A DNA stretch of 64,000 bases from an uncultured Alphaproteobacteria bacterium (lineage in GTDB: Bacteria; Pseudomonadota; Alphaproteobacteria; UBA3830; CAYLKK01). The position numbers were made by a program, and so were the translations under genes. The stretch is taken from contig CAZMHS010000001.1 in assembly GCA_964566185.1 (NCBI GenBank), forward strand, positions 86,159-150,158. Direction: 5' to 3'. Positions 2,673 through 54,114 of this stretch are shown here, one piece after another. The notes beneath the pieces are model-generated. The model had not been told where the DNA came from, did no database searches, and saw nothing but the letters and a program-made list of their open reading frames with translations. Every line of letters starts with the position of its first letter. Within the stretch, counting starts at the first letter, position 1.

Positions 2673-2691
2673 ACATATTTCCTTAAACATT

Positions 2692-2775: not shown

Positions 2776-2814
2776 TCTTGCCAATATATTACAACGATCT
2801 TTATTAATTAGATA

Positions 2815-5919: not shown

Positions 5920-6256
5920 AGCATACTCCTAAGAAAATTACTATTATTCCAACTAAGCGTAGAGCAGAAACATTTTCTCCAAAGAAACACCAACCTGCTA
6001 ACGCTGCTAATATGTATGATATACTACCAAATGGATACAAGTAACTCAACTCACATCTGGATAACAGATATAACCAAATTAATAGTGATACTACAAATAA
6101 TGATATACCTGATAGTATGTTAATATTGGTTGCTATTGAAAGTGATAAATCAAGTATATGTTGTTCGAACGATATCTTATTTACTCCACTTTTCAGCAAT
6201 ACTTGCGCGAACGTGTTTAGGCACACTTGAAAGAAAATTATAAAAAAAATAGTCAT
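5903..6256 (-). CDS. small 4-TM EamA/SMR-like membrane protein, ArnE/ArnF-like flippase subunit
   Basis: 117 aa with four hydrophobic helices. AQVLLKSG near the N-terminus and YPFGSISYILAALAGWCFFGENVS...GIIVIFLGV resemble ArnE/ArnF. It overlaps arnB by 17 nt as the first gene of the operon. Confidence 0.6.
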   Translation of the reverse strand: MTIFFIIFFQVCLNTFAQVLLKSGVNKISFEQHILDLSLSIATNINILSGISLFVVSLLIWLYLLSRCELSYLYPFGSISYILAALAGWCFFGENVSALRLVGIIVIFLGVCCVAKS

Positions 6257-6349
6257 TAATAACGCTACACTATGTACGAAAACATTATAGGTTATTAAAA
6301 ATCAAAAAGCTATATGTCTTGTTTTGCTGTTGATCATATTGTATAAAAA

Positions 6350-6378
6350 TTGACAAATTCTTTTTATTATTGTATAAT
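6350..6378 (+). promoter_or_regulatory. consensus sigma70-type promoter TTGACA-17 nt-TATAAT
   Basis: TTGACA at 6350-6355, exactly 17 nt of spacer, TATAAT at 6373-6378. GGAG (6398-6401) and ATG 6407 follow. The ORF-track TTG start at 6350 is the -35 box itself. Confidence 0.6.
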
Positions 6379-6406
6379 TATTCGTTGTTTTTATGTTGGA
6401 GAAGTT

Positions 6407-7789
6407 ATGACTAATAGGTTAATGGTTTATGCTGTTTTATTTAATGTTGTTTTGCCTTGTGTCGGAATGGAGAATAAAGAGACGATTGAGAATCATAAAG
6501 ATCTTGTAGCAGCTGTGAAGAAAATCGATTATAGAGTGGGTGAAATATTGTCTGATTCCCATTATAATTTGATAGATGTGGCTGAAGAGTTTCGGAAGTA
6601 TGGAAGTAAGATTCAGTTTGGTACTACTGCTGCACGTAGAAAAATGGTGCTTCCGGAAATAAAGAATTATTTAAGCGATTTTAATGTACTTTGTAAGAGT
6701 GTTGGCGTCTTGGTTGAGCATATAAGAGGAATGGATGGTGTTCCTGCTACTAGTAAGAATGAATGTGTGAAATTTATTAATGATGCTATGACTGCCAGTA
6801 AAGAAAAAGTCTATAGTATCGGCCGTGAGCTTGTTGGTAAATTAATGGTCTGGAATGGTGGAATTAATGTCTGGGATGATGAAATTGATAAACTTTTAAA
6901 AGGCGAGGTAATCGGTAGAGATGAACATGAGAGTTTTTTAAATCTCATTTCAAATATTGAAAGGGTCGATCGTCAGGTAAGTGAAGTATTGCTGTCACAG
7001 GATGAGTATAATGCGTATGGTGCTCTCGATGATTTGAAGGTCGTTCAGAAAGGTGTTAGTGGTTGTTGGAAAGATGTGTATTCTCATTGGAAAGAAAAGG
7101 CAGTTCAGCAGGTTAAAAAACTATATTCGTTTGGTGTGGAACGTAAGCACAATGCTTATGGTTTTTTTAATCTGTTGGAATCGTTGAATGGTTTTGAAGA
7201 GTGTCATGGAATGATTGCTGAGCATTTGAATGCTAAGGATCAGTATCAATATGAGGATCAATATAGGGATTTATGTTCGAAGATTTTGTCGGCTGTTGGT
7301 GTTGAAAAGAATGAGCATAGTAGAATTTTTACAACTGCTGACATCAATGTGTATTCTGGAGTTCGTCCGCATAATGAACTCGTGTCAGTCGTGCGGGAAA
7401 TCAATAATACGATAGGTGAAATGTTGAATGATGACCAATATAATGTGTCTGATGTTGCCCTTGCGTTGGATGGGGGAAAACTCTATTTAAACCTTTCTAA
7501 GGATAGCAGTCCTGAGACAAAAAATAATGTGATGCAGCATTTGAAAGAGGTGCTCGAATTATATAAAGAACGTCGTGCAAATGTTGTTGAGTTACTGCAC
7601 AGAATAATGGGGAGTGGGGATCTTACATTTGCGAGTAAGGTGCGGTGTTGGATAAAGATTCGGGCGGCTTTTGAGAGTTCTGAGGATAAGATTCGTCATA
7701 ATAGTTCTAGTATTTTGGAGCGTTTTATAGATGATTCGAATGTGGTTTGGGATTTTATAAATAACTATTTTCCGCCATTGAATTACTAG
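6407..7789 (+). CDS. hypothetical secreted protein with three ~145-aa internal repeats
   Basis: Has an SD + ATG and an N-terminal hydrophobic signal-like segment (MTNRLMVYAVLFNVVLPCVG). No family recognised. A repeated block starts at nt 6494, 6926 and 7370 (HKDLVAAVKKIDYRVGEILSDSHYNLIDVA / HESFLNLISNIERVDRQVSEVLLSQDEYNAYGAL / HNELVSVVREINNTIGEMLNDDQYNVSDVA). Confidence 0.75.
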   Translation: MTNRLMVYAVLFNVVLPCVGMENKETIENHKDLVAAVKKIDYRVGEILSDSHYNLIDVAEEFRKYGSKIQFGTTAARRKMVLPEIKNYLSDFNVLCKSVGVLVEHIRGMDGVPATSKNECVKFINDAMTASKEKVYSIGRELVGKLMVWNGGINVWDDEIDKLLKGEVIGRDEHESFLNLISNIERVDRQVSEVLLSQDEYNAYGALDDLKVVQKGVSGCWKDVYSHWKEKAVQQVKKLYSFGVERKHNAYGFFNLLESLNGFEECHGMIAEHLNAKDQYQYEDQYRDLCSKILSAVGVEKNEHSRIFTTADINVYSGVRPHNELVSVVREINNTIGEMLNDDQYNVSDVALALDGGKLYLNLSKDSSPETKNNVMQHLKEVLELYKERRANVVELLHRIMGSGDLTFASKVRCWIKIRAAFESSEDKIRHNSSSILERFIDDSNVVWDFINNYFPPLNY

Positions 7790-8060
7790 TAGTTTTTGTT
7801 CATCTTTTGCCTTGCGAGCATGTGCTCGTGGGGCTTTTCGCACCCATGTCGCGTGAATTCTTTTTATTATTTTATACGCAAATTTGTTGATTTAAATCTA
7901 ATTGATAGGTTTTCTGTAAACACAGTGTAGTTAGTCGTACATAGTGTAATATTCGTATTAAATACTGTTATGTTACTAAATTAGCTAGATATGTACTTGA
8001 AATTGTCATAAAAATCCTGATATCCTATCGCATACTTATTTTTATGGGGTACTATTACTT

Positions 8061-9611
8061 ATGAATATAATGAAGGCTGTTGCGACTGTTGGTGGGTGGA
8101 CTCTGGTCTACAGAATTACCAGCATAATTCGTGACGCTATGCAGATGGCTGCTCTTGGAGCTGGACCTTTTGCTGATGCGTTTGCTGTTGCATTTAAACT
8201 GGCGAACATTTTAAGAAAGATGTTTGCTGAGGGTGCGTTTAATGCTTCGTTCTTACCGATATTTTCTTCATGTTTGAAGGCTGAAGGGAAGGAGGAAGCG
8301 TCGAAGTTAGCTAGTCAGATATTGACTTTGCTGACGATCATTGTATCTATTGTTACGTTATTTTGTATGTACAATGTTGACGTAATTATTGGGGCATACG
8401 CTAAAGGTTTTCCTCCAGGGTCTGAGAAAATGACGAACGCTATTTCGTTTGGACGAATTTGCTTTCCGTTCGTTGCAGCTTCGTTTGTTGCTGCATTATT
8501 TGGTGGCGTGTTAAATACTGTAAATAGATTTGCGATGCCTGCTGCTGCACAGCTGTCTCTCAATATCTGTGTTATCGGAGCGGTTTATATAGGAGCTCTT
8601 CACTTTCCAAGCGTTGCATACACAATGTGTTGGGGAACGCTTCTTGCCGGCGTAATACAGGTGGCTCTATTATGGTGGAATGTAAGGAAATTAGGTTTTA
8701 AAATAGGGTTTTCATCGTGCAAGTGGACAAAAGATGTTTCTGCTTTCTTTAAGAAATTATTATCTGGTGCTCTTGGAGCTGGCGTGTGGCAAGTTAATAT
8801 TGTTATCGACATTAGTATGGCGTCACTTTTACCTACAGGTGGGATAACATATTTATATGCAACTGAGCATCTTAATGCTTTTCCTCTTGGAATTTTAGGA
8901 TTAGCTTTCAGTACCGCGTTGTTACCTCCATTAACAAAGGCTGTGAAGGCTGGTAATATTAGTGATGCAAAAGCACAACTGAATCTTGGTTTGTTGTTTG
9001 CTCTTCTCTTAACGATGCCTGCTGTTGTCATTCTGTGTACTATGAATACTCCTATTATCGACGTTTTTTATGGGTACGGAAATTTTGGACAACAGCAAGT
9101 TCTTGCTGCCGCTCCGGCGTTAGCTGCCTTTGCTGCTGGTTTACCTGCTTATATGTTAACAAAAGTGTTTTCTAGCGCATTTTTTGCTCACAAAAATACG
9201 AAAACTCCATTCAGAGGCGGTATAATATCGATTGTTGTTAACGTCATTTTTATTTGGTTGTTGCTGCCGATATTTAAACATAATGGAATTGCTTTAGCAA
9301 CGTCCATTTCAGCTTGGGCTAATGCATTCTATTTGTGGTGGAGTTTGCGGACATTAGATGGAATGACTATTAAGTGGAAAACATGGGGGCAATTTATATT
9401 GCAATGCGGCGTTTCTGCTGTGATGTTAGCTTCTGTCATGTTTATGAATGAATATGCCGCTGCCAATCATTTGTATGCTGGTGGAAAGTTCCAATCAGTT
9501 GTTACGTTAGCTGTTAGTGTTGCTGCTAGTATTTTAGTCTTCATCGCAGTAGGAAAAGTTTTTGGAATCTTTTCATTTATGAAAGACTTTAAGTCTGTTG
9601 CGAAAGATTAA
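8061..9611 (+). CDS. murJ: lipid II flippase MurJ (MviN)
   Basis: 516 aa and polytopic. The N-terminus is typical of MurJ (TLVYRITSIIRDAMQMAALGAGPFADAFAVAFKLANILRKMFAEGAFNASFLPIFS). Confidence 0.9.
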   Translation: MNIMKAVATVGGWTLVYRITSIIRDAMQMAALGAGPFADAFAVAFKLANILRKMFAEGAFNASFLPIFSSCLKAEGKEEASKLASQILTLLTIIVSIVTLFCMYNVDVIIGAYAKGFPPGSEKMTNAISFGRICFPFVAASFVAALFGGVLNTVNRFAMPAAAQLSLNICVIGAVYIGALHFPSVAYTMCWGTLLAGVIQVALLWWNVRKLGFKIGFSSCKWTKDVSAFFKKLLSGALGAGVWQVNIVIDISMASLLPTGGITYLYATEHLNAFPLGILGLAFSTALLPPLTKAVKAGNISDAKAQLNLGLLFALLLTMPAVVILCTMNTPIIDVFYGYGNFGQQQVLAAAPALAAFAAGLPAYMLTKVFSSAFFAHKNTKTPFRGGIISIVVNVIFIWLLLPIFKHNGIALATSISAWANAFYLWWSLRTLDGMTIKWKTWGQFILQCGVSAVMLASVMFMNEYAAANHLYAGGKFQSVVTLAVSVAASILVFIAVGKVFGIFSFMKDFKSVAKD

Positions 9612-9631
9612 GTATATAATCTTTTTCATAA

Positions 9632-9665
9632 ACGCATGAGATAGATTTATCTTGTGCGTTTTTTC
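9632..9665 (+). terminator. rho-independent terminator after murJ
   Basis: ACGCATGAGAT (9632-9642), loop AGATTT, ATCTTGTGCGT (9649-9659) give an 11-bp stem with two G-U pairs, followed by TTTTT (9660-9664). Confidence 0.7.
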
Positions 9666-9731
9666 TTATTTTGTAACGTTACTTTAACGTTTTTACGTCA
9701 TAATACTCTCGATATACTGCCGGAGTTTGTC

Positions 9732-10415
9732 GTGAAATGCGTTGCTGTATTGATACCGTGTTATAACGAAGCAACAACAATTTACAGCGTCGTAAGACGT
9801 TTTCAAAGAGTGCTTCCAAACGCTCTAATATACGTATACGATAATTCATCTAACGACGCAACATGTTATGAAGCTAAAAGGGCAGGGGCCATAGTTCGTT
9901 ATGAATTAAAGCAAGGAAAAGGTAATGTCGTAAAATCAATGTTTAATGACATTAATGCTGATATTTACGTTACTATAGATGGAGATATGACTTACAATAT
10001 CGACGATGCACCCAAAATGATAGAGATGCTAGAAAATGAAAATCTTGATATGGTTGTTGCTGCAAGACAAAAAGTTGATAAAAATTCGTTCCCAAAATAT
10101 CATGAGTTCGGCAATAAAGTGTATAACTGTTTGATGCGATTGATGTTCGGAGGCGAGTTTACAGATATATTTTCTGGTTTTAGAGTATTATCGCGTGATT
10201 TTGTGAAATCTTTTCAGATCTCTTCAGAAGAATTTGAAATAGAGGCTGAAATGACGGTTTATAGTTTAATGACAAAAAAACGTTGTAGAGAGATTTCATC
10301 AAAATATTATAATCGCCCTGTTGGGTCTTATAGTAAACTAAGATCTATTCGCGATGGTATGAAAATTTTATTAAAAATGTGTGTTTTATTTTTTCAATAT
10401 AAACTACAAGTATGA
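9732..10415 (+). CDS. family-2 glycosyltransferase (polyprenyl-phosphate sugar synthase-like, soluble type)
   Basis: VAVLIPCYNEATTI, VYDNSSNDAT, GKGNVV and the DxD context TIDGDMTY are present. The ORF-track start at 9654 lies inside the murJ terminator, so I chose GTG 9732, preceded by GGAG (9722-9725). The stop overlaps the next gene (ATGA). Confidence 0.75.
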   Translation: MKCVAVLIPCYNEATTIYSVVRRFQRVLPNALIYVYDNSSNDATCYEAKRAGAIVRYELKQGKGNVVKSMFNDINADIYVTIDGDMTYNIDDAPKMIEMLENENLDMVVAARQKVDKNSFPKYHEFGNKVYNCLMRLMFGGEFTDIFSGFRVLSRDFVKSFQISSEEFEIEAEMTVYSLMTKKRCREISSKYYNRPVGSYSKLRSIRDGMKILLKMCVLFFQYKLQV

Positions 10416-12190
10416 CAAAAATATTTAAGCAAGAAGAAATCGGACTCTTATTCATTTGGGGTGCTATCGTTTGTACATTATTTGTTTATCAACAAAGTAA
10501 TTTAATACCATTTTCCGATACTGATGATTATATGCGTTTGGTATATGTATTGGAATATTTAAATGGGAAACTAGGATGGTATGATCATGTGATAGATAGA
10601 AGTAATGTTCCTTTCGGTTGTGATATACATTGGACACATTTGTACGATATTATTTTGATAGCAGGTACATATATATTTCGGATATTTTTTGATTCTGTAA
10701 AAGAAGCATTGCTGCATTGGGCAATGTTTGTAACTCCAGTGATATCATGTTTTTCAATTGTAATATTTTACAGAATATGTAGAAAATTTTTCAAAAAAGA
10801 GATGAGTTTTATATGTGGAATGCTATTTATGTTAACTCCATATATATGTGCTCAAATGCGTATTTGTAGGCCAGACCATCATGGCTTTTTGATATTACTT
10901 TCATTATTGACGATAAAATATTTTCTTGATTTTCTGAAGTCTGTAAGATCAGAAAGGTTAGATGTATACATTATCCAGGCTGTTAAATTAGGTTTAGCGT
11001 ACTCTCTTGCACTTACAGCTAGTCCAGAGCTGTTGTTAGTTATTGTGCCACTAGAGCTATTTTTCATTATACATTGGATTATTTTTCAGAAATTCACAAA
11101 AGCATTCATGGTTAAATCTATTTCTTGGCTAGTACAAATAGTAATATGCTATTTAGCATTTTCTAGTGATGGCATATATGGAATATCTCACATTGATTAT
11201 GATAAACTATCTATAGTTCATGTATATCTTGCATTTACGTCATCTGTATTTTGGTTTGTATTATATAAACGTGCCTTAATTACTAGGTATATAGATTGTT
11301 GTAATATTCAAAAACGTTTAACTATTGTCGCTTTGATCTGTGTTCCATTAATACTTAGTATTTTATTATTGTTTCCAAAAATAATATATTTAATGTCGGG
11401 TAACATAGACTCAGAAGTTAGGCGATTATGGTTGCCGAATATAAATGAAATGAAATCTCCGTTGAACAATCAGTCTTCATACGTATTTTGGTCATATATT
11501 TTTTTCATATTAATAACAATTATTGGATACGTTTTTTCTTTGTTAAATCTTCGGCACATTAAAAAGCCAAATAAATTGTTGATAATATTTATGTGTAGTT
11601 CTTCAATATTGTATATAATATTTGGCGCTATCAGCTCAAGAACTTTATATTATACAGCAATTTTTGCAATACCGTTTATTACTAATGGATTGTATTGTTT
11701 ATTTTCATCAAAACTTGATAGGAATCGTGGATATTATACGATTTTAGTATTTATATTTAGTATTTATGTTATTCCATTATCTTTGGCACACGACAATGAT
11801 GATGAATACGACACGAAGGCTGTTTATAAAGGTTTAGTTGATTACTTCCAAAAGGTAAAAGAACCAAGTGTAATTTTAACTACAGGTCGGTATGGTCCGA
11901 TCTTGTTGTTTTATACGAATCATAGTGTGGTGTCAAATCATTACCATAGGCAAACATATGGAATTTTAGCTGATTGTACAGTTTTTTTATCTAGATCTGC
12001 TACGCTCGATGATTTAAAAAAAATATTAAAAAAATCGCATGTTTCATACTTGGTTTTCACTAGATCTAGAAAATGTAGCTCTGGTATTTATAAAGCATTG
12101 TTTCATAAACAAGCACCAAAATATCTTGAAATGCAAAAAGCTAACGTTCGTAATGCTATAATATATAAGGTAATACCTAAATACCTATAG
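10412..12190 (+). CDS. polytopic GT-C-fold membrane glycosyltransferase candidate (ArnT/PMT/STT3-like)
   Basis: 592 aa with more than 10 predicted TM helices. An acidic first-loop motif (FSDTDDYMRLVYVLEYL) is reminiscent of ArnT PDETRYAE and STT3 DxD-Y motifs. It has a soluble C-terminal domain, lacks WWDYG, and is translationally coupled to the GT2. Confidence 0.5.
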   Translation: MTKIFKQEEIGLLFIWGAIVCTLFVYQQSNLIPFSDTDDYMRLVYVLEYLNGKLGWYDHVIDRSNVPFGCDIHWTHLYDIILIAGTYIFRIFFDSVKEALLHWAMFVTPVISCFSIVIFYRICRKFFKKEMSFICGMLFMLTPYICAQMRICRPDHHGFLILLSLLTIKYFLDFLKSVRSERLDVYIIQAVKLGLAYSLALTASPELLLVIVPLELFFIIHWIIFQKFTKAFMVKSISWLVQIVICYLAFSSDGIYGISHIDYDKLSIVHVYLAFTSSVFWFVLYKRALITRYIDCCNIQKRLTIVALICVPLILSILLLFPKIIYLMSGNIDSEVRRLWLPNINEMKSPLNNQSSYVFWSYIFFILITIIGYVFSLLNLRHIKKPNKLLIIFMCSSSILYIIFGAISSRTLYYTAIFAIPFITNGLYCLFSSKLDRNRGYYTILVFIFSIYVIPLSLAHDNDDEYDTKAVYKGLVDYFQKVKEPSVILTTGRYGPILLFYTNHSVVSNHYHRQTYGILADCTVFLSRSATLDDLKKILKKSHVSYLVFTRSRKCSSGIYKALFHKQAPKYLEMQKANVRNAIIYKVIPKYL

Positions 12191-47172: not shown

Positions 47173-48357
47173 CTAACATATGCTTTCATGGATTCTTATT
47201 AATCTATTGTATTTACTTATTCTATCTCCGCGGCGAGGTCCACCAATCTTGATGTATTCTGCTCCAACTCCTACAGCAAGGTCGCACATGGCTGTATCAT
47301 CAGTTTCAATAGAACGATGTGATACACACAATGTAAAACCGTACGACCGAGCCTTTTTTGCTGCTTGCAACGTTCCACTAATTGTTCCTATTTGGTTCAT
47401 CTTTAACAAAATGCCATTTGCAATGTCTGGAGATATATTATCTGCATTTGTTGCGAAAAGGTCATCACCGACAATTAATGCAGAATCAAAACATTTCATT
47501 AACTGTTTCCATGTAGTCGTATCACCTGGATCAAAAGGATCTTCTACATAAAACACGTGTCTACCATATATCAATTGCTTAATTTCTTCTAACAGCTCTC
47601 GTGACGTCAATTTAACCTTTTCATACATATAATACCCATTATCGAGCATTAAGTGTTCTGCTGCAACATCTACACCATATTTGATACATTGCGAACAACA
47701 TAAAATATTGTTCTTTGCTTTATCTAACAAATTAAATACTTCATCAATAGAAATATCATTGACGATCATGCCACTAGATGATGAATACCCTAATAAACGT
47801 CCTGCGTCTTTCATTTGAGATTCAATACTAGAGTATATACTAATTACTGTCTCGAAATTAGAGATCAAATTTTCAGATGTAGGGATCAACATCACCTGTT
47901 GAAACGGTATACCCTGTCCTTTTGCGTGTATTCCACCGCTAAAAACATTTACCATAGGAAATGGGATCTTTGGGGAACTGTTTGCTAACGCTGAAATATA
48001 TTGATACAGTTCAATTCCTATCTTACTCGCGCATGCTCTGCAAAATGCAATAGACATAGACAACATTAAATCACTACCTAAGTGATACTCATCGTTTAAC
48101 TTACTTAATGCATCATCAAATTCATATTGGCCGTCGAAAACAACATTCTTAATGGCACATTTCAACTGATTTTCTAAATCAGTGAAGGATGAGCTTGCAT
48201 CTGACGCCGGTTTCTCTAGCCTACCCGGTTTCAACGCTGATGGTGCTGAACCAACACCATGCCAACCATCATCAACAGAAATAATAACTTCAAATGTCCA
48301 TTCACCACCTGAATTAAATATACGACGAATTTTCAAATTTGAGATTCTATATTTCAT
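47173..48357 (-). CDS. enolase-family protein, divergent (acid-pair residues replaced)
   Basis: Collinear with enolase: PMVNVFSGGIHA, VDVAAE, YVEDPF, IVGDDLFATN, LLKMNQIGT, VSHRSIETDDTAMCDLAVG and IKIGGPRRGDRISKYNRLIRIHE. However, FQQVML replaces IQEFMI and LGYSSSSG replaces VGDEGGYAP. Confidence 0.85.
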   Translation of the reverse strand: MKYRISNLKIRRIFNSGGEWTFEVIISVDDGWHGVGSAPSALKPGRLEKPASDASSSFTDLENQLKCAIKNVVFDGQYEFDDALSKLNDEYHLGSDLMLSMSIAFCRACASKIGIELYQYISALANSSPKIPFPMVNVFSGGIHAKGQGIPFQQVMLIPTSENLISNFETVISIYSSIESQMKDAGRLLGYSSSSGMIVNDISIDEVFNLLDKAKNNILCCSQCIKYGVDVAAEHLMLDNGYYMYEKVKLTSRELLEEIKQLIYGRHVFYVEDPFDPGDTTTWKQLMKCFDSALIVGDDLFATNADNISPDIANGILLKMNQIGTISGTLQAAKKARSYGFTLCVSHRSIETDDTAMCDLAVGVGAEYIKIGGPRRGDRISKYNRLIRIHESIC

Positions 48358-48374: not shown

Positions 48375-50234
48375 CTAATTTTCGCATTCGAATAAATACC
48401 CTAAAAGGTCAATTGCGTATTTTACCTCTAAAGATCCTTCATTTTTTGCGTAGCTTTCACCGAACACACAACTATTATCAGGTGCAATGTTGTTACCATA
48501 CACGAGAACAGGTACTTTATCAGATGAATGTATACCAAGTTCACACGGCGTACAATGATCACACGTAACAATAAGTGAGTCTTTTATACCCATTCTAGAC
48601 ATTAGCGTACCAATAAAATGCTTATCAAAGCGTTCAATAGATTCTGCTTTTGCTACAGGATTTCCGCCATGACCAGCTTCATCTGCACTTTTCAATATAT
48701 GTATACAGATAACATCGGCATCATCATTAGCTATAAGCTCTGCCGACTCTTTCAACAGTCGAATTTCATCATTATGTTCCGGCATCTCTATATAATTAAA
48801 CTTTCCTCCCAGTAACAAAGCTAATCCTCTTTCAGCTGGAATCTGTCCATACATAGATAACGTCCTACCAAATTTTTCTTTAAACGTACATAATTTAATA
48901 GGCATTTCCCCGGCATCTCTCATTAACAACATATTAGCCGTCTGCTGTCCTCTCGCTAAACGTGCTTTATTTGTAGCGCTTTCTGATAGTACTTTTGCAA
49001 CTTTTGAGACAAATTCATTAACTATCTTCGCAGAAAAAGCTGCCTCTTCAGAGTCGTCTAACGGGACACATTTCAATGGTTCTGGAATAACAGTCTCATT
49101 TGGTATACCAAACGCTCCTTGCTTCTTAAAACCAGGATCTGTATTCGATATATTTCCAGATAGCTTACGATTTTTGCATGTTAAACTTACAATTCCTCTA
49201 TGATGCCCAAACACAACAATTTTGAACGTAACATCATACTCCTCTAAAGATACGTGGCTACGCAGCTCTTCGGCTAAACTTTGTAGCTCAGGATTAGATA
49301 GATCTCTTGAGGTTCTTCTATCCAACTTTTTGTTAGCCGGATCATAACTTGCTAAATTCACTCTAAAACATATTGTATTAGAATTATCTCGCTCTAATAA
49401 AACAAAATTAGCGCCAAGCCCTTCTAATGGTCCTCTTCCAGTGTAATACTTTAAAGGGTCATAAGAAAGAATAGCCATCGTGCCATTATCTGATTCAGGC
49501 GGAATAGAATCGTTTAAAATTGTAATCATTCCTTGACATCCATAAAGAGCTAATCTGTCCAGATTAGGTGTATAAGCTTGTTCAAATGGTGTCTTGCCAC
49601 CAAATTGAGCTATTGGACGATCTGCGCCGCCATCAACGATTACAATATACGTCTTTCCTTCTTCAGCGAACACAACTTGAAGCCGATGTTTATCGGCGGA
49701 CATTATTGAATCAATTACACGCTTAGTTCCAGACGGAGCTAAATGCCACCACTGTTTTCCTTTTAAAATACCATCCCGAATTTTTGTCGCAGTAATATTC
49801 TTCTCTTCTTTTGATTTGTACCACAACACTTCAGTTCTAAATCCATGTTTTGCCAGCTCAGCCTGCTTTTTTTCTCCCCACTCATCATATATTGTTAAGA
49901 AATACACAGCATCAGCAGGTGTATAATACTTTAATAACCAAGGAACATTGATTGGAAATGGAACAATCCTCACTCTAGACACATCATCGCCTACTGCGTC
50001 TACTAAAGACTCTCTAATCATCTCCATACGTTCACAAAACGTAAATGGATTCGATATATCAGTTGATCTATTCGGATCAGATGCATCAAATCTTATAGAT
50101 GATGGATCAGGATTGGTTATTCCAATAAACAAAGTTTCCGACCTTTCTAAAGCTGTAAGAACATATTTTAAATGATCATTGTGAAACGGCTGAAACCTAC
50201 CATGTACTACGCCATAACGATACCTATTCATCAT
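48375..50234 (-). CDS. fusion protein: NMNAT/NadM-like nucleotidyltransferase (N) + archaeal-type cofactor-independent phosphoglycerate mutase-like domain (C)
   Basis: N-terminal ~175 aa: GVVHGRFQPFHNDHLKYVL...LFIGITNP (HxGH-class NTase) and a late ITATKIRDGI (ISSTxxR-like) motif. From about aa 195: YIVIVDGGADRPIAQFGGKTPFEQAYTPNLDRLA, PPESDNGTMAILSYDPLKYYTGRGPLEGLG, DRRTSR, DEAGHGG and TCDHCTP (ApgM pattern). Confidence 0.8.
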   Translation of the reverse strand: MMNRYRYGVVHGRFQPFHNDHLKYVLTALERSETLFIGITNPDPSSIRFDASDPNRSTDISNPFTFCERMEMIRESLVDAVGDDVSRVRIVPFPINVPWLLKYYTPADAVYFLTIYDEWGEKKQAELAKHGFRTEVLWYKSKEEKNITATKIRDGILKGKQWWHLAPSGTKRVIDSIMSADKHRLQVVFAEEGKTYIVIVDGGADRPIAQFGGKTPFEQAYTPNLDRLALYGCQGMITILNDSIPPESDNGTMAILSYDPLKYYTGRGPLEGLGANFVLLERDNSNTICFRVNLASYDPANKKLDRRTSRDLSNPELQSLAEELRSHVSLEEYDVTFKIVVFGHHRGIVSLTCKNRKLSGNISNTDPGFKKQGAFGIPNETVIPEPLKCVPLDDSEEAAFSAKIVNEFVSKVAKVLSESATNKARLARGQQTANMLLMRDAGEMPIKLCTFKEKFGRTLSMYGQIPAERGLALLLGGKFNYIEMPEHNDEIRLLKESAELIANDDADVICIHILKSADEAGHGGNPVAKAESIERFDKHFIGTLMSRMGIKDSLIVTCDHCTPCELGIHSSDKVPVLVYGNNIAPDNSCVFGESYAKNEGSLEVKYAIDLLGYLFECEN

Positions 50235-50236
50235 AA

Positions 50237-51217
50237 TTACCTCACTCCCAATATTTTTAAAATCTCTTTACGCAAAAACAATTTACCGGTACTTCCTACA
50301 TCACCATCCCAAGTAACGCCAAGATGTGAGTTTGCAAAAATATGCTTTATTTCATCCGAATGAGAAATAAGATAATTTTTGCCTTCACTAATTGATGGCA
50401 TGGTCAGAACCCAATCTCTATATTCAGAAGTACATTTTTCTAAAGCTTCGATAAATTCTGAATTTTTAATCATCGAAGAAGCATCATACAGTTCAATTTG
50501 TGCAATAGCCCAACCGTTGTCACTTAGAACTTTTATATCATTAGTTAACGCATATTCTAAGTTAGAAAGCATAACTCTCTCTACTTCAACGTAATATTCT
50601 TTTATCCAGTCTTTCGGTAAACATACATATTTTTCTAATGCTTTAAACGCCTTTATATCACGATCTTTCGTGATGCTTGCATTAAAATTTAGAGTATTAG
50701 CGAATATTGCCGTATATAGCAAATTGGCCGATAGTTCACTAGGTTTTTTTTGCGCGGCTTCAAATTCTTCAAAAATTAACGTTGCGCAAGCGCCTAGAAA
50801 TTCTATATTCCCCCTCTCTTTCCAATATTGTTCAAAACCAAAATGATGATCAAAAACAATTTCAATTTCATCTTCATTTACGAACTTTGGAAAGTAATGA
50901 GGATCACTGACATCAACTATAACGAAAGAATTATACTCTTGTGCTGCTTCATTTAAAAAATGTCCAGAACACATTTTTCGGATGCTCTCAGGAACAGTAC
51001 CATTTAATTTTCCTGGAAGTACGACATCACATTTTTTTAACTCACCATACGCGATTGCACAAGCTAATGTATCTATGTCCGTATATGCACTACCACTCGT
51101 TACACACGTTTTCCTACAATCAGTCATCAAAGCTCCTTCGCAATTACAAGCAGGAACATTACTGCAAAAAACACACATAATCAACAGCAAAAAAAATACT
51201 TTCATAAAATACTCCAT
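50237..51217 (-). CDS. DHH/DHHA2 phosphoesterase, family II inorganic pyrophosphatase-like, with N-terminal signal/Cys-rich extension
   Basis: Collinear with PpaC as recalled: SGSAYTDIDTLACAIAYGELK, FVIVDVSD, VFDHHFG, GACATLIFEEF, LLYTAIFANTLNF, WAIAQIELYD and GKLFLRKEILKIL. It is preceded by MKVFFLLLIMCVFCSNVPACNCEGALMTDCRKTC. An alternative start lies at 51205. Confidence 0.7.
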   Translation of the reverse strand: MEYFMKVFFLLLIMCVFCSNVPACNCEGALMTDCRKTCVTSGSAYTDIDTLACAIAYGELKKCDVVLPGKLNGTVPESIRKMCSGHFLNEAAQEYNSFVIVDVSDPHYFPKFVNEDEIEIVFDHHFGFEQYWKERGNIEFLGACATLIFEEFEAAQKKPSELSANLLYTAIFANTLNFNASITKDRDIKAFKALEKYVCLPKDWIKEYYVEVERVMLSNLEYALTNDIKVLSDNGWAIAQIELYDASSMIKNSEFIEALEKCTSEYRDWVLTMPSISEGKNYLISHSDEIKHIFANSHLGVTWDGDVGSTGKLFLRKEILKILGVR

Positions 51218-51226
51218 AAATTTTTT

Positions 51227-52045
51227 CTATATACACAACTTTCTTAGATAGTCAGCATCTTTCAACCACGGTTCGATTTCTGCTGACGGTGGATTAAATG
51301 TTTCAAGAACAATCATAGCGTCATTATCTGAGAATTCACTCAAAAAACGTTTGATATCATAATTTCCAATACCTAAATGTAGATGAGCGTCAAAACTGAC
51401 GGACATATCTCCATCGGATAAGTGGTATAAAACAGGATTCAGAGCTTTATACTTACTAAACGAATCATATACATCAATATTTAACGAAATAGCCGCGCAC
51501 ACAGCATGTGCAAAATCAAAGCAAAATTTACAACCTGTTTCATTGACTATTCTAGAGATATTTTCAAATCTTCCTCCATGCATAAAACATCCGAAGACTT
51601 CATATGGAAGATTTTCTACAGTAATACGACTATCATTTATTAATCTCACTTGCCTGATTGTTTCATCTACACACTTATCGGAATCTCCGATCCCAGGATG
51701 CAATATGATGATCTCAGATTGCAACAAATCTGCGCATTTTTGGGAAAATTCCAAAGCCTGAATATTTCGAGTTAACCACGACTCATCGCTAGTATTCACA
51801 CCATTATACTTCGAAGGAATATAAAACGGAGCATGGACAACGACTTTAATTCCTGTCATCTTTTGCTCAATTTTACATAAAATACCATCGTAGTACTCTG
51901 GAGTGTATCTTGCATGTAGCTGAACGAAATTATACACATTGTCTCGGACCGCTTTTAAAATATGATCAGCAAGGTCTGGTTGGCTTAACAAATCTATAGA
52001 ATTCAAATTAATACCAAAATGTCTCATCAGTGCGCTACCCTTCAT
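51227..52045 (-). CDS. xylose isomerase-like TIM-barrel protein (AP endonuclease 2 / sugar-phosphate isomerase-epimerase superfamily)
   Basis: The spaced metal-ligand pattern typical of this fold is present (VVVHAPFYI; IIILHPG; TVENLP; FCFDFAHA; YHLSDGD; DAHLHLGIGNYD; IVLETF). Confidence 0.65.
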   Translation of the reverse strand: MKGSALMRHFGINLNSIDLLSQPDLADHILKAVRDNVYNFVQLHARYTPEYYDGILCKIEQKMTGIKVVVHAPFYIPSKYNGVNTSDESWLTRNIQALEFSQKCADLLQSEIIILHPGIGDSDKCVDETIRQVRLINDSRITVENLPYEVFGCFMHGGRFENISRIVNETGCKFCFDFAHAVCAAISLNIDVYDSFSKYKALNPVLYHLSDGDMSVSFDAHLHLGIGNYDIKRFLSEFSDNDAMIVLETFNPPSAEIEPWLKDADYLRKLCI

Positions 52046-53606
52046 AACTTAAAATGAATTCTGCAATCGTTACGCCTAACTTCTTGGCTTCATTTTTTAT
52101 CCACAAATTTGCGTCTAACTGTTTTTCAAATCGTTGTACAATCTTTTTATAATTCTCGTGATGAATCGCGTAAGCATATTCTTTCGCTGTCATCAAACAC
52201 AACATGATGCTACGTCCTGATGGTAATTTTCTACTTCTACGATTTCTAAACTTAAAACCCTGAAATGATGACAAACCTGCTTCCTGTTTTATAAAAATAG
52301 ATGAACCAAGCTCTGCGTCTATATCAAAAACAGATTCGCTAAAATCTCTGCAAACCATAGATGCGAAATACGCTGGAACTTTGATGCCTTGTAACATCTC
52401 ATACGATCTAGAGCCTTTTACAAGAATGGCTGAAGCATCAAGCACCAAGTCAACTACTTCCTCAGATAATTGTAAACCATGTACAGCTCCCCAACACGGT
52501 CCGCATTCAGAATATCCATATTGACCACTATCAAATTGTGTGCTTAATTTCGAAAAAACAGGTAATGATAAATATCGCTTTATATCAATAGACGACGCAT
52601 CATTCCCATATCTAATACCGTGTTTTCCACTACGTGGAACTGAAATGATCTTCAAATTTTCGTTTGCAGACAGTAATTGCTGTATAAAGTATAAATCAAA
52701 CACCGTTTCAGCTACATCATCATGAAACCAAAGTAATGTTTTCGGTGATTTTGTTAAGACAAATTCCGTTTCAAACTCTTTCCAAAAGTCTATAACAAAA
52801 TCTTCTTTTACTTTGTTGTCTAGAGAATTTTTAATGCGTATGACTTTCTCCTGAAAAGTTTCATTTTCAAGTAAATTGTAGAATATAATGTTGTTAATGC
52901 TTTTATGAATCGGTGATGCAGCTGATGCTGACGATTTCATATCGACGCCAAGCGAACCAGCGGCAATGGAGTACTTCAGTAAGTTTAGTAATGAAACATT
53001 AGAGAAACGTTCTATAATTGCGAGACTCACTGCTTCAACTTTTTCATTATATGAACGTTCAACATACGGATATTTATTCACATCGTCATACAAAAAGAAT
53101 GCAATCAACTTTGTAAACACATCTTGATACAACTGATTTGGAACTAACTCTATCAGCATCTTGTTGAGTTTATTATGTTTTAGAAACATAGATAAATAAA
53201 CAAACTCTTCAACCTTAATACCAAGTTCTTGCTCTTTATTCCTAAGCAACAACGACGCATTTTCCTCAGCTTGGCATAATCTACATATTTCATTATGAAC
53301 GCACTGAAAGACCCAGTCCTTAAAAGGTAAGTTATCCGCAGAAGCGATGAAATCTGGCTGTTTCAAGCGTTCAGACAGAAAAAACGTTCCTGTTTCGAAA
53401 TCGTCGTCGAATAACCCTGCTAGCTTATCTTTCTCGGCTGGTGAAATAGATGACCCTAATACCGTGTCTATAAAACGGTATGGACATTTAACCATCAATG
53501 CTTGCGCCACATCATTACTCACGCGCGCATACTCCGTAATACTATCGCAGGCTTCGATGTCTTTTATCAACTTTTCTAATGCTAAACCCATATTGCATTT
53601 CTCCAC
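52035..53606 (-). CDS. protein with C-terminal DUF89 (ARMT1-like metal-dependent phosphatase)-like domain and unrecognised N-terminal ~290 aa
   Basis: C-terminal half: LLWFHDDVAETVFDLYFIQQL (compare DNxGxExxxD), RYGNDASSIDI and ILVKGSRSYEMLQG (compare KGxxNYE). GTG 53606 or ATG 53591 (after GGAG) are possible starts. It overlaps the next gene by 11 nt. Confidence 0.55.
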   Translation of the reverse strand: MEKCNMGLALEKLIKDIEACDSITEYARVSNDVAQALMVKCPYRFIDTVLGSSISPAEKDKLAGLFDDDFETGTFFLSERLKQPDFIASADNLPFKDWVFQCVHNEICRLCQAEENASLLLRNKEQELGIKVEEFVYLSMFLKHNKLNKMLIELVPNQLYQDVFTKLIAFFLYDDVNKYPYVERSYNEKVEAVSLAIIERFSNVSLLNLLKYSIAAGSLGVDMKSSASAASPIHKSINNIIFYNLLENETFQEKVIRIKNSLDNKVKEDFVIDFWKEFETEFVLTKSPKTLLWFHDDVAETVFDLYFIQQLLSANENLKIISVPRSGKHGIRYGNDASSIDIKRYLSLPVFSKLSTQFDSGQYGYSECGPCWGAVHGLQLSEEVVDLVLDASAILVKGSRSYEMLQGIKVPAYFASMVCRDFSESVFDIDAELGSSIFIKQEAGLSSFQGFKFRNRRSRKLPSGRSIMLCLMTAKEYAYAIHHENYKKIVQRFEKQLDANLWIKNEAKKLGVTIAEFILSYEG

Positions 53607-54114
53607 TCTTTAGAAATAGAAGAACAAAATACACTCGTTAACGATGTTAACACATTTGTGGAAAAAATACATTAAATATAATTAAAATTATTACAAAAAT
53701 TGCGTGTATCATGTAAATCAGTACGGTGTTGTGTATACAAAATTATTGGCATTGTAAAATTGATTTTTGTGTATTTGACACTACGTGAGAGATGCTGTAA
53801 ACATACAACAACGTATGTGTGCTATTATCGATTTGATGACTGTAACAGAGATTTGAGGTTAGGTGCTCTTTTTAGCTATTTGAGTTAATCATTGTTTTAC
53901 ATCATCTTGTTAAGCGTTAGATGTTTGATTGTTTGCATGATTGTGGCTGTTGTGTTTTGTATGTGGCAAGATAATATGAGTATCACATATGCATGACGGT
54001 CTTTTTCTGTCGTTCTCTGGGTATACGCTAACCTTATTTTACGTAAACACTAGATTTTTGGATTGATATAGTTTAGAATTAAACAGATGTTTTCTCTGTA
54101 TTAATGGGTGTGTT

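What the first reader, a model, noticed from the sequence alone, without database searches (positions are those of the whole stretch)
48375..50234. Single-ORF fusion of an NMNAT/NadM-like nucleotidyltransferase to an archaeal-type iPGM domain
Seen in sequence: residues 1 to about 175 carry GRFQPFHNDH (an HxGH variant with Asp in place of Gly) and a distal ITATKIR motif. Residues from about 195 to 619 carry the ApgM pattern, including the putative phospho-Ser context PPESD and the DHCTP metal site. No stop or frameshift separates the two parts.
Established knowledge: both domains are common individually. I do not know of a described fusion of the two.
Inference: the fusion implies substrate channelling between a nucleotidyl transfer and a phosphomutase or phosphotransfer step. 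The alkaline-phosphatase-superfamily domain might also act on a nucleotide-linked phosphate rather than as a true PGM.
Basis: partly seen in the sequence, partly recalled or inferred. Interest (0 to 1): 0.6.

Follow-up and report, generated by a model that had tools for sequence, protein, structure and literature searches.

The report
Fused PhpF–PhpG-like enzyme outside phosphonate clusters
The single 619-residue protein is real, but it is not an NAD-synthesis enzyme joined to a glycolytic mutase: it fuses the two enzymes that, in phosphinothricin biosynthesis, activate a small phosphorus anion with CTP and hand it to phosphoglycerate, here in a bacterium with no phosphonate genes nearby and with closest relatives that sit beside the selenophosphate synthetase gene.

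Summary
ORF 48375..50234 (-) is an uninterrupted 619-aa protein with all four cited motifs. Orthologues at 53-64% identity from independent assemblies are also fused.

The interpretation needs correcting.
- The N-domain is 45% identical to PhpF (CTP:phosphonoformate nucleotidyltransferase).
- The C-domain is 46% identical to PhpG: 535 bits on NCBIfam phophono_PhpG against 285 on apgM.
- The downstream "enolase" is 39% identical to PhpH and shares its altered active site.

So the pairing of the two domains is a known module from phosphinothricin biosynthesis. Only the covalent fusion is rare.

The context is new. The 64-kb window has no PEP mutase, CPEP mutase or phosphonopyruvate decarboxylase. 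The gene sits in a conserved 5-gene operon: DUF89, Endo-IV-like TIM barrel, DHH pyrophosphatase-like, the fusion, PhpH-like.

It also differs from every PEP-mutase-linked PhpF and PhpG at active-site positions (HNDH instead of HxGH; Asp201 instead of Cys). Its nearest relatives, and more distant NT plus ApgM-like pairs in Rhodococcus plasmids and a deltaproteobacterial MAG, lie directly beside selD.

Best reading: a CTP-dependent module that activates a small phosphorus oxyanion and transfers it to phosphoglycerate. The anion is probably not phosphonoformate, and selenophosphate is the leading candidate.

The parts
48375..50234 (-). Fusion ORF, 619 aa: PhpF-like nucleotidyltransferase joined to a PhpG-like alkaline-phosphatase-superfamily transferase.
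   Evidence: The ORF is, Pfam and NCBIfam. BLAST gives 45% and 46% identity to PhpF and PhpG of a Streptomyces phosphinothricin cluster.
49680..50234 (-). N-terminal nucleotidyltransferase domain (residues 1 to about 185). The HxGH motif reads H-N-D-H (residues 18-21, with Asp20 at nt 50175-50177). ITATKIR is at 147-153 and the 'PFPIN' motif is near residue 95.
   Evidence: PF01467 scores 29.8 bits. The alignment with 18 PepM/Ppd-linked PhpF, which all have HxGH and 'PFPH[SG]', is. Foldseek matches archaeal NMNAT.
49656..49679 (-). Inter-domain linker (residues about 186-193).
   Evidence: Residues 187-190 have low pLDDT. In L076 this stretch corresponds to the overlapping stop and start codons of the separate genes.
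48378..49655 (-). C-terminal PhpG-like domain (residues 194-619). It has the DGGADRP metal motif (Asp201 at nt 49632-49634), the putative nucleophile Ser248 in PPESD (nt 49491-49493), ADEAGH at 517-522 and DHCTP at 559-563.
Evidence: NF038358 phophono_PhpG scores 535.3 bits (cutoff 545) and apgM scores 284.9. Foldseek matches 2zkt ApgM with TM 0.85.
47173..48357 (-). PhpH-like enolase homologue, 394 aa, starting 17 nt downstream of the fusion.
   Evidence: Enolase_C and Enolase_N are found, but the eno model scores 216 bits against a cutoff of 300. It is 39% identical to PhpH. The Mg ligands, the Lys base and SHRS are kept, while 'QEFM' becomes QQVM and 'GDEGG' becomes SSSSG, as in all PhpH.
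50237..51217 (-). DHH/DHHA2 phosphoesterase resembling family II inorganic pyrophosphatase. It ends 2 nt before the fusion start.
   Evidence: DHH scores 22.8 bits and NF003877 scores 51 bits. The best PDB match is B. subtilis pyrophosphatase 1k23. Homologues lie next to the NT or PhpG-like genes in L040/L041, L061 and a Halorussus plasmid.
51227..52045 (-). Xylose-isomerase-like / endonuclease-IV-like TIM-barrel protein, 272 aa.
   Evidence: PF01261 scores 56.1 bits. The best PDB match is Endo IV 3aam. The gene is conserved in L015, L016 and L021 at 65-66% identity.
52035..53606 (-). ARMT1-like / DUF89 protein, 523 aa. The real start is probably the ATG at 53591, which is preceded by GGAG.
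   Evidence: PF01937 scores 34.3 bits. The family has only 11 clusters, and two of them are fused to MFS transporters.
53607..54114 (.). Intergenic region of 508 bp between the operon and the divergent secG. It presumably holds the operon promoter.
   Evidence: The gene map is. The promoter scan was not above the shuffled expectation.

Best explanation
The ORF encodes a bifunctional enzyme. It is the core of a five-gene operon that processes a small phosphorus-centred anion, by the same logic as the PhpF-PhpG-PhpH steps of phosphinothricin biosynthesis.

**Proposed steps**
1. The N-domain uses an NTP (CTP in PhpF) to convert the anion R-PO3 into a nucleoside-monophosphate anhydride (CMP-P(R)) plus pyrophosphate.
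2. The neighbouring DHH/DHHA2 protein hydrolyses the pyrophosphate and so pulls the reaction forward.
3. In the C-domain, Ser248 and the two-metal site take the R-phosphoryl group from CMP. They pass it to a hydroxyl of phosphoglycerate.
4. The downstream PhpH-like enolase removes the C2 proton. It eliminates the C3 leaving group to give an enolpyruvyl ester, that is, a PEP analogue.
5. The DUF89 and Endo-IV-like proteins act before or after these steps in ways not resolved here.

Fusion puts steps 1 and 3 on one polypeptide. This would keep a labile CMP-anhydride from escaping.

**Shown**
- Homology of all three proteins to PhpF, PhpG and PhpH.
- Retention of the catalytic residues.
- Conservation of the operon.
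- Absence of phosphonate genes in the window.
- Active-site differences from all PEP-mutase-linked enzymes.
- Adjacency of selD to the nearest relatives.

**Inferred**
- The chemistry of each step.
- That the anion is not phosphonoformate.
- That the anion may be selenophosphate.
For: **Homology to the characterised module**
- The N-domain is 45% identical to PhpF and the C-domain 46% to PhpG. The neighbour is 39% identical to PhpH. All three references come from a canonical Streptomyces cluster that also carries PepM, Ppd, CPEP mutase, a radical-SAM methyltransferase and NRPS genes. Gene order there equals domain order here.
- The C-domain scores 535 bits on phophono_PhpG, against 285 on apgM.
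- PhpF has been shown in vitro to make phosphonoformyl-CMP from CTP, and the assay is run with added pyrophosphatase (bioRxiv 10.1101/2025.05.01.651723).

**Catalytic competence**
- The Ser nucleophile and the metal ligands are invariant in the PhpG-like domain.
- The enolase homologue keeps the metal ligands and the Lys base. It has lost the two Glu residues that handle the hydroxyl leaving group, exactly as PhpH has.

**Coupling of the steps**
- An independent PhpG-enolase fusion (P0107) and a second NT-ApgM-like fusion (P0147) exist.
- The same five genes occur in another alphaproteobacterial MAG with different flanks.
- DHH/DHHA2 homologues recur next to this NT family in unrelated lineages.

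**Not the phosphonoformate pathway**
- tblastn with PepM, CPEP mutase and Ppd finds nothing in the 64 kb, even at E <= 1. The flanks are rimP-nusA-infB-rbfA and secG-kdsA.
- All 18 PepM/Ppd-linked NTs have HxGH and 'PFPH[SG]'. The window clade has HNDH and 'PFPIN'.
- All 17 PepM/Ppd-linked PhpG in which the region is present have Cys at the first metal-ligand position. The window clade keeps Asp.
- In NJ trees the NT and the PhpG-like domain of the window's subclade group apart from the PepM-linked ones. In the enolase tree all the non-PepM clusters do so.

**Selenium link**
- L020 reads SelD-NT-PhpG-like-enolase. Its SelD scores 349 bits against a cutoff of 299 and has the GGCSCK motif.
- The fused P0003 and P0004 lie next to AIRS/AIRS_C genes of 360 and 340 aa. 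P0003 also has a class-V aminotransferase (NifS-like) gene.
- Rhodococcus plasmids carry an operon annotated acyl-CoA dehydrogenase, selD, NT, ApgM-like protein.
- Deltaproteobacterial L008 reads TIM barrel, SelD, ApgM-like, NT.
Against: - There is no biochemical evidence for this protein. The PhpG and PhpH steps are known to me only as proposals from genetics and from the NCBIfam name, which I did not verify in a paper here.
- The window and the orthologous locus L015 contain no selD. Whether the genome has selD or pepM elsewhere could not be tested.
- The AIRS genes beside P0003 and P0004 could not be retrieved. They are not confirmed as SelD.
- In L008 the SelD is a selenocysteine-containing housekeeping type, and 13 other delta loci have no adjacent selD.
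- The trees are neighbour-joining without support values.
- Some NCBI-named Streptomyces and Nonomuraea 'PhpG' (P0047, P0033) also have Asp at position 201, and their context is unknown.
- The PhpG model score is only 10 bits below its cutoff.
- The roles of DUF89 and the TIM barrel are unexplained.
Confidence: 0.7

Rival explanations
1. It is an ordinary, merely fused PhpF-PhpG. It makes carboxyphosphonoenolpyruvate from phosphonoformate, and the PEP mutase, decarboxylase and CPEP mutase genes lie elsewhere in the genome.
For: All three proteins are 39-46% identical to PhpF, PhpG and PhpH. The PhpG model score of 535.3 is just under its cutoff of 545. Only 64 kb of the genome was visible.
Against: - In about 20 PepM-linked loci, the mutases sit within a few genes of phpFGH. 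Here the operon is a closed five-gene unit between housekeeping genes, and the same unit recurs with other flanks.
- The window protein lacks the Cys201 and HxGH signatures that every PepM/Ppd-linked enzyme examined has.
- It groups with the selD-linked clusters rather than the PepM-linked ones.
Confidence: 0.12
2. One reading: an NMN adenylyltransferase (NAD synthesis) is fused to a true cofactor-independent phosphoglycerate mutase, next to the glycolytic enolase.
For: The folds match archaeal NMNAT and ApgM, and an enolase homologue follows.
Against: - The scores are far below the family cutoffs: NMNAT 49.8 against 181, apgM 284.9 against 320, eno 216 against 300.
- The C-domain scores nearly twice as high on the PhpG model.
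- The enolase homologue has lost the Glu168 and Glu211 equivalents needed to eliminate hydroxide.
- Genuine ApgM-enolase pairs, such as L051 with RuBisCO III and AMP phosphorylase, are only 30-38% identical to the window proteins. They fall outside the PhpG/PhpH-like clades.
Confidence: 0.03
3. The module acts on another small anion unrelated to selenium, for example phosphite, thiophosphate or an unknown phosphate ester made or trimmed by the DUF89 and TIM-barrel enzymes. The selD adjacency in relatives would then reflect a different specialisation of sister clusters.
For: - The window-type operon carries no selD. Instead it has three extra phosphoesterase-like genes.
- Sister clusters carry histidine phosphatase or DHH genes instead of selD (L056, L077, L040, L061).
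- The DUF89 family also occurs with a phosphohexomutase, a HIT protein and MFS transporters.
Against: The fused selD/AIRS-linked proteins P0003 and P0004 are 60% and 53% identical to the window protein. They share every subfamily signature in both domains. No gene in the operon obviously makes a novel anion.
Confidence: 0.3
4. The fusion is an assembly or sequencing artefact, or a pseudogene, that joins two separate genes.
For: Most relatives have separate genes, often overlapping by a few bases.
Against: Identical or 90%-identical fused proteins occur on 8 contigs from independent assemblies. Three further fused orthologues at 53-64% identity have conserved linkers. Both domains keep all catalytic residues.
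Confidence: 0.02

Closest known systems
PhpF / PhpG / PhpH of phosphinothricin tripeptide biosynthesis (Streptomyces viridochromogenes, S. hygroscopicus; Blodgett et al. 2007, cited from my own knowledge and from reference 13; NCBIfam NF038358)
   Same: All three proteins are homologous at 39-46% identity, with the same gene and domain order. The Ser and metal site in the PhpG-like domain is the same. The altered enolase active site (Gln for Glu, SSSG for DEGG) is the same. The inferred logic is also the same: NTP activation, transfer to phosphoglycerate, then elimination.
   Different: - Here the first two enzymes are one polypeptide.
- No PEP mutase, Ppd or CPEP mutase lies nearby.
- HxGH reads HNDH, and 'PFPH[SG]' reads 'PFPIN'.
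- The first metal ligand is Asp rather than the Cys seen in all PepM-linked PhpG examined.
- The partner genes are DUF89, an Endo-IV-like TIM barrel and DHH.
- The host is a low-GC, probably alphaproteobacterial organism rather than an actinomycete.
Archaeal-type cofactor-independent phosphoglycerate mutase ApgM (PDB 2zkt, 3kd8; TIGR00306)
   Same: The fold is shared (TM 0.85), as are the DGxxD, PESD and DH..H metal and nucleophile motifs.
   Different: Identity is about 26% and the score is below the family cutoff. Genuine ApgM pair with canonical enolases. Here the partner enolase cannot eliminate hydroxide in the canonical way.
Archaeal NMN adenylyltransferase (NadM type; PDB 1f9a, 1m8f)
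   Same: Both have the Rossmann-like nucleotidyltransferase fold, the GRFQPxHxxH motif and an ISxTxxR-like motif.
   Different: It scores 49.8 bits against a cutoff of 181, and Asp replaces the Gly of HxGH. It is much closer to PhpF (45%) than to any NMNAT (about 25%).
Fom1 of fosfomycin biosynthesis (cytidylyltransferase domain fused to PEP mutase) and the nucleotidyltransferase fusions to PEP mutase (Ppm) surveyed by Rice et al. 2019 (PMC6697681)
   Same: A PF01467 cytidylyltransferase domain is fused to another enzyme of the same pathway that handles a phosphorus-containing acid.
   Different: The fusion partner there is PEP mutase, and the substrate is a phosphonate. Here the partner is the alkaline-phosphatase-superfamily transferase, and no mutase is present.
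Selenophosphate-dependent small-molecule pathways (SenC/SenB of selenoneine; ovoselenol)
   Same: selD is clustered with biosynthetic enzymes outside the selenocysteine and selenouridine machinery.
   Different: The enzyme families are entirely different: glycosyltransferase and sulfoxide-synthase types there, nucleotidyltransferase plus alkaline-phosphatase-superfamily transferase here. A May 2026 review lists no such trait.

Membership tests
PhpG (NCBIfam NF038358, CMP-5'-phosphonoformate--3-phosphoglycerate phosphonoformyl transferase) | The score reaches the curated equivalog cutoff of 545 bits. | tested here: not met
   It scores 535.3 bits over residues 194-615. A genuine PhpG from a phosphinothricin cluster scores 692.3, and the selD-linked L020 protein scores 493.3.
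PhpG (NCBIfam NF038358, CMP-5'-phosphonoformate--3-phosphoglycerate phosphonoformyl transferase) | The alkaline-phosphatase-superfamily Ser nucleophile and metal ligands are retained. | tested here: met
   S248, D205, D518, H522, D559, H560 and H569 are invariant in 21 relatives.
PhpG (NCBIfam NF038358, CMP-5'-phosphonoformate--3-phosphoglycerate phosphonoformyl transferase) | Cys at the first metal-ligand position ('LCGxxDRP'). This is an empirical signature derived here from PepM/Ppd-linked members. | tested here: not met
   The window has Asp201 ('VDGGADRP'). All 17 PepM/Ppd-linked sequences in which the region is present have Cys.
PhpG (NCBIfam NF038358, CMP-5'-phosphonoformate--3-phosphoglycerate phosphonoformyl transferase) | The gene lies in a cluster with PEP mutase and CPEP mutase. 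| tested here: not met
   tblastn of PepM, CPEP mutase and Ppd against the 64-kb window at E <= 1 gave no hit. The rest of the genome was not visible.
PhpF (CTP:phosphonoformate nucleotidyltransferase) | Close homology to PhpF within the PF01467 fold. | tested here: met
   It is 45% identical over 167 residues to the PhpF of L017. PF01467 scores 29.8 bits against a cutoff of 21.
PhpF (CTP:phosphonoformate nucleotidyltransferase) | Canonical H-x-G-H and 'PFPH[SG]' motifs, as found in all PepM/Ppd-linked PhpF. | tested here: not met
   The window has H-N-D-H and 'PFPIN'. All 18 PepM/Ppd-linked sequences have HxGH.
PhpF (CTP:phosphonoformate nucleotidyltransferase) | Cytidylyl transfer to phosphonoformate. 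| not testable with these tools
   This needs an enzyme assay. The reference activity is described.
PhpH (enolase homologue of phosphinothricin clusters) | Enolase fold with Mg ligands and Lys base retained, but with Gln and Ser in place of the Glu168 and Glu211 equivalents. | tested here: met
   EDPF, GDDL, KMNQ and SHRS are kept. 'QQVM' and 'SSSSG' replace 'QEFM' and 'GDEGG', identically to 15 PhpH sequences.
ApgM (TIGR00306) | The score reaches the cutoff of 320 bits. | tested here: not met
   It scores 284.9 bits.
Archaeal NMN adenylyltransferase (TIGR01527 / NF002243) | The score reaches the cutoffs of 181.2 and 127 bits. | tested here: not met
   It scores 49.8 and 56.5 bits.
Enolase (TIGR01060), tested on the neighbouring gene | The score reaches the cutoff of 300 bits, and the catalytic Glu residues are present. 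| tested here: not met
   It scores 216.1 bits, and both Glu residues are replaced.
Family II inorganic pyrophosphatase (NF003877), tested on the neighbouring gene | The score reaches the cutoff of 283 bits, and the His-Asp-Asp and DHH metal ligands are present. | tested here: inconclusive
   It scores 51.1 bits. The DHH motif and the two Asp are present, but the His9 equivalent is Ser. The best PDB matches are family II pyrophosphatases.

The most novel reading that the evidence does not exclude
The HxDH-type nucleotidyltransferase plus ApgM/PhpG-like transferase pair, fused in this window, is the core of an undescribed selenium-utilisation pathway.

Selenophosphate made by SelD would be cytidylylated. 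Its selenophosphoryl group would then be transferred through a Ser-enzyme intermediate to phosphoglycerate. In the PhpH-containing clusters the product would be converted to a selenophospho-enolpyruvate-type metabolite. That would be a sixth selenium trait beside selenocysteine, selenouridine, the Se-molybdenum cofactor, selenoneine and ovoselenol.

The window's operon would be the version that draws on a selD encoded elsewhere.
Probability: 0.25. Interest if true: 0.85.

Novelty: new variant of a known kind. Interest (0 to 1): 0.62.

Why it matters
PhpF, PhpG and PhpH have been regarded as a peculiarity of phosphinothricin-type phosphinate biosynthesis. This locus shows the same three-enzyme logic outside any phosphonate cluster. 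Here it is a self-contained operon in a low-GC Gram-negative bacterium. Its active-site changes separate it cleanly from the phosphonate enzymes.

Its relatives sit beside selD in at least three unrelated lineages. This gives a concrete, testable candidate for a new route by which cells use selenophosphate. More generally it points to a family of enzymes that nucleotide-activate small inorganic-like phosphorus anions.

It also corrects database names. JGI labels the fused relatives P0003 and P0004, and many unfused PhpG-like relatives, "2,3-bisphosphoglycerate-independent phosphoglycerate mutase". NCBI labels some Asp-type relatives PhpG.

Tried and rejected
- **PEP mutase, CPEP mutase, Ppd, SelD and histidine phosphatase in the window.** tblastn at E <= 1 found nothing.
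- **tRNA-Sec.** The window has only four ordinary tRNAs.
- **Is the 527-aa gene beside P0003 a DUF89 homologue?** I searched with the window's DUF89 protein. No hit came from that contig. DNA for the P0003 and P0004 contigs was not retrievable.
- **Are the AIRS genes beside P0003 and P0004 SelD?** I searched with the L020 SelD. Neither was among the 120 hits listed, so this stays unverified.
- **Window TIM barrel against the TIM barrel beside SelD in L008.** They share the Pfam family but have no BLAST similarity, so this is not evidence of a shared component.
- **Promoter and terminator scan of the operon.** Counts were not above the shuffled expectation.
- **Literature.** Searches for a described SelD-nucleotidyltransferase-mutase cluster found nothing. 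The original Blodgett 2007 paper is not held in the library.
- **More distant PhpG-like hits (36-38% identity).** Where their context was checked (L051), they are genuine ApgM-enolase pairs in an AMP-salvage context, so they are not part of this system.
- **Inter-domain interface.** It was not analysed. The pTM of 0.71 and the low-confidence linker make the relative domain orientation unreliable.
Full report
**1. The observation**

ORF 48375..50234 on the minus strand is a 619-aa reading frame with no interruption. Pfam places a cytidylyltransferase-like domain at 10-153. It places the PhosphMutase and Metalloenzyme domains at 194-592.

An AlphaFold model built on 21 relatives has a mean pLDDT of 89. 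The only weak stretch between the domains is residues 187-190. Foldseek matches the C-domain to archaeal ApgM 2zkt and the N-domain to archaeal NMN adenylyltransferases.

The fusion is not an assembly accident.
- The same protein is found on an NCBI contig and on seven Logan contigs.
- Three orthologues of 64, 60 and 53% identity from other samples are also fused.
- In the nearest unfused relative (L076) the transferase gene's stop codon overlaps the next gene's ATG by 8 nt. The linker of fused P0003 still contains the C-terminal residues of that separate transferase.

**2. What the two halves are**

NCBIfam scores the C-domain at 535.3 bits on NF038358, [quoted passage not shown] (PhpG). It scores 284.9 on apgM, below that model's cutoff. 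The N-domain reaches only 50-57 bits on NMNAT models whose cutoffs are 127-181.

I retrieved a canonical phosphinothricin cluster from Streptomyces (L017/L018). It carries PEP mutase, phosphonopyruvate decarboxylase, a 184-aa cytidylyltransferase-like gene, PhpG, an enolase homologue, a second PEP-mutase-family gene, a radical-SAM enzyme and NRPS genes.
- The window's N-domain is 45% identical to that transferase (PhpF).
- The C-domain is 46% identical to PhpG.
- The gene 17 nt downstream (47173..48357) is 39% identical to the enolase homologue PhpH.

Gene order phpF-phpG-phpH equals the domain order here. PhpF has been shown in vitro to make phosphonoformyl-CMP from CTP and phosphonoformate in assays supplied with pyrophosphatase. 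It is cited as a PF01467 member in the phosphonate literature. The pairing of these two domains is therefore a known functional module.

**3. The enolase partner**

Aligned to solved enolases, the neighbour keeps the metal ligands (DVAAEH, EDPF, GDDL), the Lys of KxNQ and the SHRS motif. It replaces 'QEFM' with QQVM, 'GDEGG' with SSSSG and 'PSGASTG' with PSALKPG. Every PhpH in my set shows the same replacements.

The two lost Glu residues are those that, in canonical enolase, act on the C3 hydroxyl leaving group (established enolase mechanism, from my own knowledge). This fits elimination of a better leaving group from a 3-phosphoglycerate-derived intermediate, which is an inference. The eno model scores 216 bits against a cutoff of 300.

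**4. How rare the fusion is**

A word-indexed search of 5.8 billion proteins returned 94 relatives. Only four of them carry both domains. An exhaustive HMMER search of 1.84 billion representatives gave 3,835 hits. Among the best 150:
- only the window's own 50% cluster and one unrelated protein have the NT plus ApgM-like architecture. That protein is P0147: 618 aa, 30% identity, an HRAH motif, and a position next to TauD and sulfate-activation genes;
- P0107 is a PhpG-enolase fusion.

The steps are therefore repeatedly welded together in different combinations, which supports a direct hand-over of intermediates.

**5. Context in the window**

The fusion sits in a tightly packed minus-strand operon, with intergenic gaps of 2 to 17 nt and an 11-nt overlap between the DUF89 and TIM-barrel genes:
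- ARMT1/DUF89-like (52035..53606)
- xylose-isomerase/Endo-IV-like TIM barrel (51227..52045)
- DHH/DHHA2 phosphoesterase (50237..51217)
- the fusion
- the PhpH-like gene

The flanks are rimP-nusA-infB-rbfA on one side and secG-kdsA, then ftsW and murD, on the other. tblastn with PEP mutase, CPEP mutase, phosphonopyruvate decarboxylase, SelD and a histidine phosphatase finds nothing anywhere in the 64 kb at E <= 1.

The same five genes, at 50-66% identity, occur in an Alphaproteobacteria MAG. There they lie between a transposase and a LuxR-type gene. They therefore behave as a self-contained unit.

The partner proteins look like this.
- The DHH protein's best solved relatives are family II pyrophosphatases.
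- Homologous DHH/DHHA2 genes lie next to the transferase or PhpG-like genes in L040/L041, L061 and a Halorussus plasmid. This fits the need to remove pyrophosphate from the nucleotidyl-transfer step.
- The TIM barrel resembles endonuclease IV.
- The DUF89 family is tiny, with 11 clusters, and two of these are fused to MFS transporters.

**6. It is not the phosphonate version**

I sorted 50 metagenomic loci and the other retrieved loci by context. About twenty carry PepM and a CPEP-mutase homologue around NT-PhpG-enolase.

The remaining loci fall into these types:
- the window type;
- selD-linked clusters;
- DHH-linked clusters (L040/41, L061);
- histidine-phosphatase-linked clusters (L056, L077).

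In neighbour-joining trees of the transferase and the PhpG-like protein, the window's subclade (window, L015, P0003, P0004, P0005, L020) groups apart from the PepM-linked ones. In the enolase tree all the non-PepM clusters group apart. No support values were computed.

The motif differences are more telling.
- All 18 PepM/Ppd-linked transferases have H-x-G-H and 'PFPH[SG]'. The window clade has H-N-D-H and 'PFPIN'.
- All 17 PepM/Ppd-linked PhpG in which the region is present have Cys in place of the first Asp of the DGxxD metal motif. The window clade, like true ApgM, keeps Asp201.

It sits in the motif that grips the NTP phosphates, and with the change at the metal site it points to a different transferred group. 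The enolase partner shows almost no clade-specific change. This suggests that the glycerate half of the chemistry is the same and the anion half differs.

**7. The selenium lead**

- The closest unfused cluster, L020, reads SelD-NT-PhpG-like-enolase. The NT is 50% identical, the PhpG-like protein 54% and the enolase 41%. Its SelD passes both equivalog cutoffs and has the Cys/Lys motif GGCSCK.
- The fused orthologues P0003 and P0004 are followed by AIRS/AIRS_C genes of SelD size. In P0003 a class-V aminotransferase of the cysteine-desulfurase/selenocysteine-lyase type also follows. I could not retrieve those sequences to confirm that they are SelD.
- More distantly, five Rhodococcus plasmids carry the NT next to an ApgM-like ("alkaline phosphatase family") protein. 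In the two I opened, the translationally coupled operon is annotated acyl-CoA dehydrogenase, selD, transferase, ApgM-like protein.
- A deltaproteobacterial MAG has TIM barrel, SelD, ApgM-like, NT.
- Related transferases in Treponema sit beside a PPDK-type dikinase homologue, a cysteine desulfurase and a viperin-like radical-SAM enzyme. The E. gilvus plasmid has only the transferase and the dikinase homologue.

selD is a single-copy gene that many genomes lack. Repeated immediate adjacency in unrelated lineages is therefore unlikely to be chance. None of the roughly twenty PepM-linked clusters has it.

Selenophosphate, like phosphonoformate, is a small R-PO3 anion. A May 2026 review lists only five selenium traits: selenocysteine, selenouridine, the Se cofactor, selenoneine and ovoselenol. 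My searches found no description of this cluster.

Against the idea:
- the window operon and its orthologue carry no selD;
- 13 of 14 delta loci lack an adjacent selD;
- the L008 SelD is a selenocysteine-containing housekeeping form.

**8. Verdict**

I put 0.7 on the mechanism [quoted passage not shown]. I put about 0.12 on it being the ordinary phosphonoformate pathway, and about 0.25 on selenophosphate being the substrate.

It is best filed as a new variant of a known kind. The fusion itself is a modest novelty. The phosphonate-free, selD-associated clade with its own active-site signature is the part worth an experiment.

Noticed in passing
P0145 (1024 aa) and P0164 (1001 aa): Nucleotidyltransferase domains 36-39% identical to the window's N-domain, with a canonical HNGH motif and duplicated in tandem in both proteins (seen in the sequences). 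They are fused to NB-ARC/NACHT STAND NTPase modules. P0164 also has a TIR domain, and P0145 has TPR repeats. These look like conflict or defence-type proteins that use this transferase family as an N-terminal module.
   Followed up: partly
L080 (Treponema saccharophilum plasmid pTS2) 7992-12355; L079 (Enterococcus gilvus pCR1A) 7992-10502: A transferase 43-44% identical to the window's N-domain is followed by a PPDK_N/PEP-utilizer dikinase homologue. In Treponema a cysteine desulfurase and a viperin-family radical-SAM enzyme follow as well. This may be a parallel 'dikinase plus sulfur/selenium donor plus CTP-using' cluster.
   Followed up: partly
L078 (Rhodococcus pyridinivorans plasmid pA) 5672-9868; L082 (R. 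aetherivorans pN1) 2672-6868: A plasmid-borne, translationally coupled operon encodes an acyl-CoA dehydrogenase family protein, selD, a nucleotidyltransferase (HNQH motif) and an ApgM-like 'alkaline phosphatase family protein'. No function is annotated for the last two.
   Followed up: partly
L081 (Halobaculum limi plasmid) 5745-10277; L083 (Halorussus salilacus plasmid) 4656-7751: Haloarchaeal versions of the pairing. Halobaculum has acyl-CoA dehydrogenase, ApgM-like protein, a 472-aa protein with no Pfam match, then the NT. Halorussus has a homologous 445-aa unknown protein, then the NT, then a DHH/DHHA2 protein. The two unknown proteins are 35% identical to each other.
   Followed up: partly
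L073 1425-6847 (P0147): An independent NT-ApgM-like fusion (618 aa, 30% identity, HRAH motif) lies next to a TauD dioxygenase and the sulfate-activation genes cysC, cysN and cysD.
   Followed up: no
P0099 and P0100; L071 340-5769: The window's DUF89 family has only 11 clusters in the database. Two are fused to MFS transporters. One (L071) sits in the gene order DUF89, alpha-phosphohexomutase, HIT protein, MFS transporter.
   Followed up: partly
window 50237..51217 (-), first 30 codons or so: The DHH ORF begins with a hydrophobic, Cys-rich stretch (MEYFMKVFFLLLIMCVFCSNVPACNCEG...). Homology to other DHH proteins starts near residue 38. The stretch could be a signal or lipoprotein-like extension, or the true start could be Met31. 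The L015 orthologue aligns from residue 8.
   Followed up: no
L008 about 8950-10001: The SelD gene of this deltaproteobacterial MAG has an in-frame TGA in the motif 'AAG*AAK'. It is therefore a selenocysteine-containing SelD whose ORF is truncated by ordinary ORF calling.
   Followed up: partly
P0088 (468 aa): A protein combines Radical_SAM/Fer4_12 domains with a CTP_transf_like domain 46% identical to the window's N-domain. This is another fusion partner for this transferase family.
   Followed up: no
P0047 and P0033: Streptomyces and Nonomuraea proteins named PhpG by NCBI carry Asp, not Cys, at the first metal-ligand position. Either the Cys signature is not universal, or these are non-phosphonate paralogues named by over-extension. 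Their contexts were not examined.
   Followed up: no
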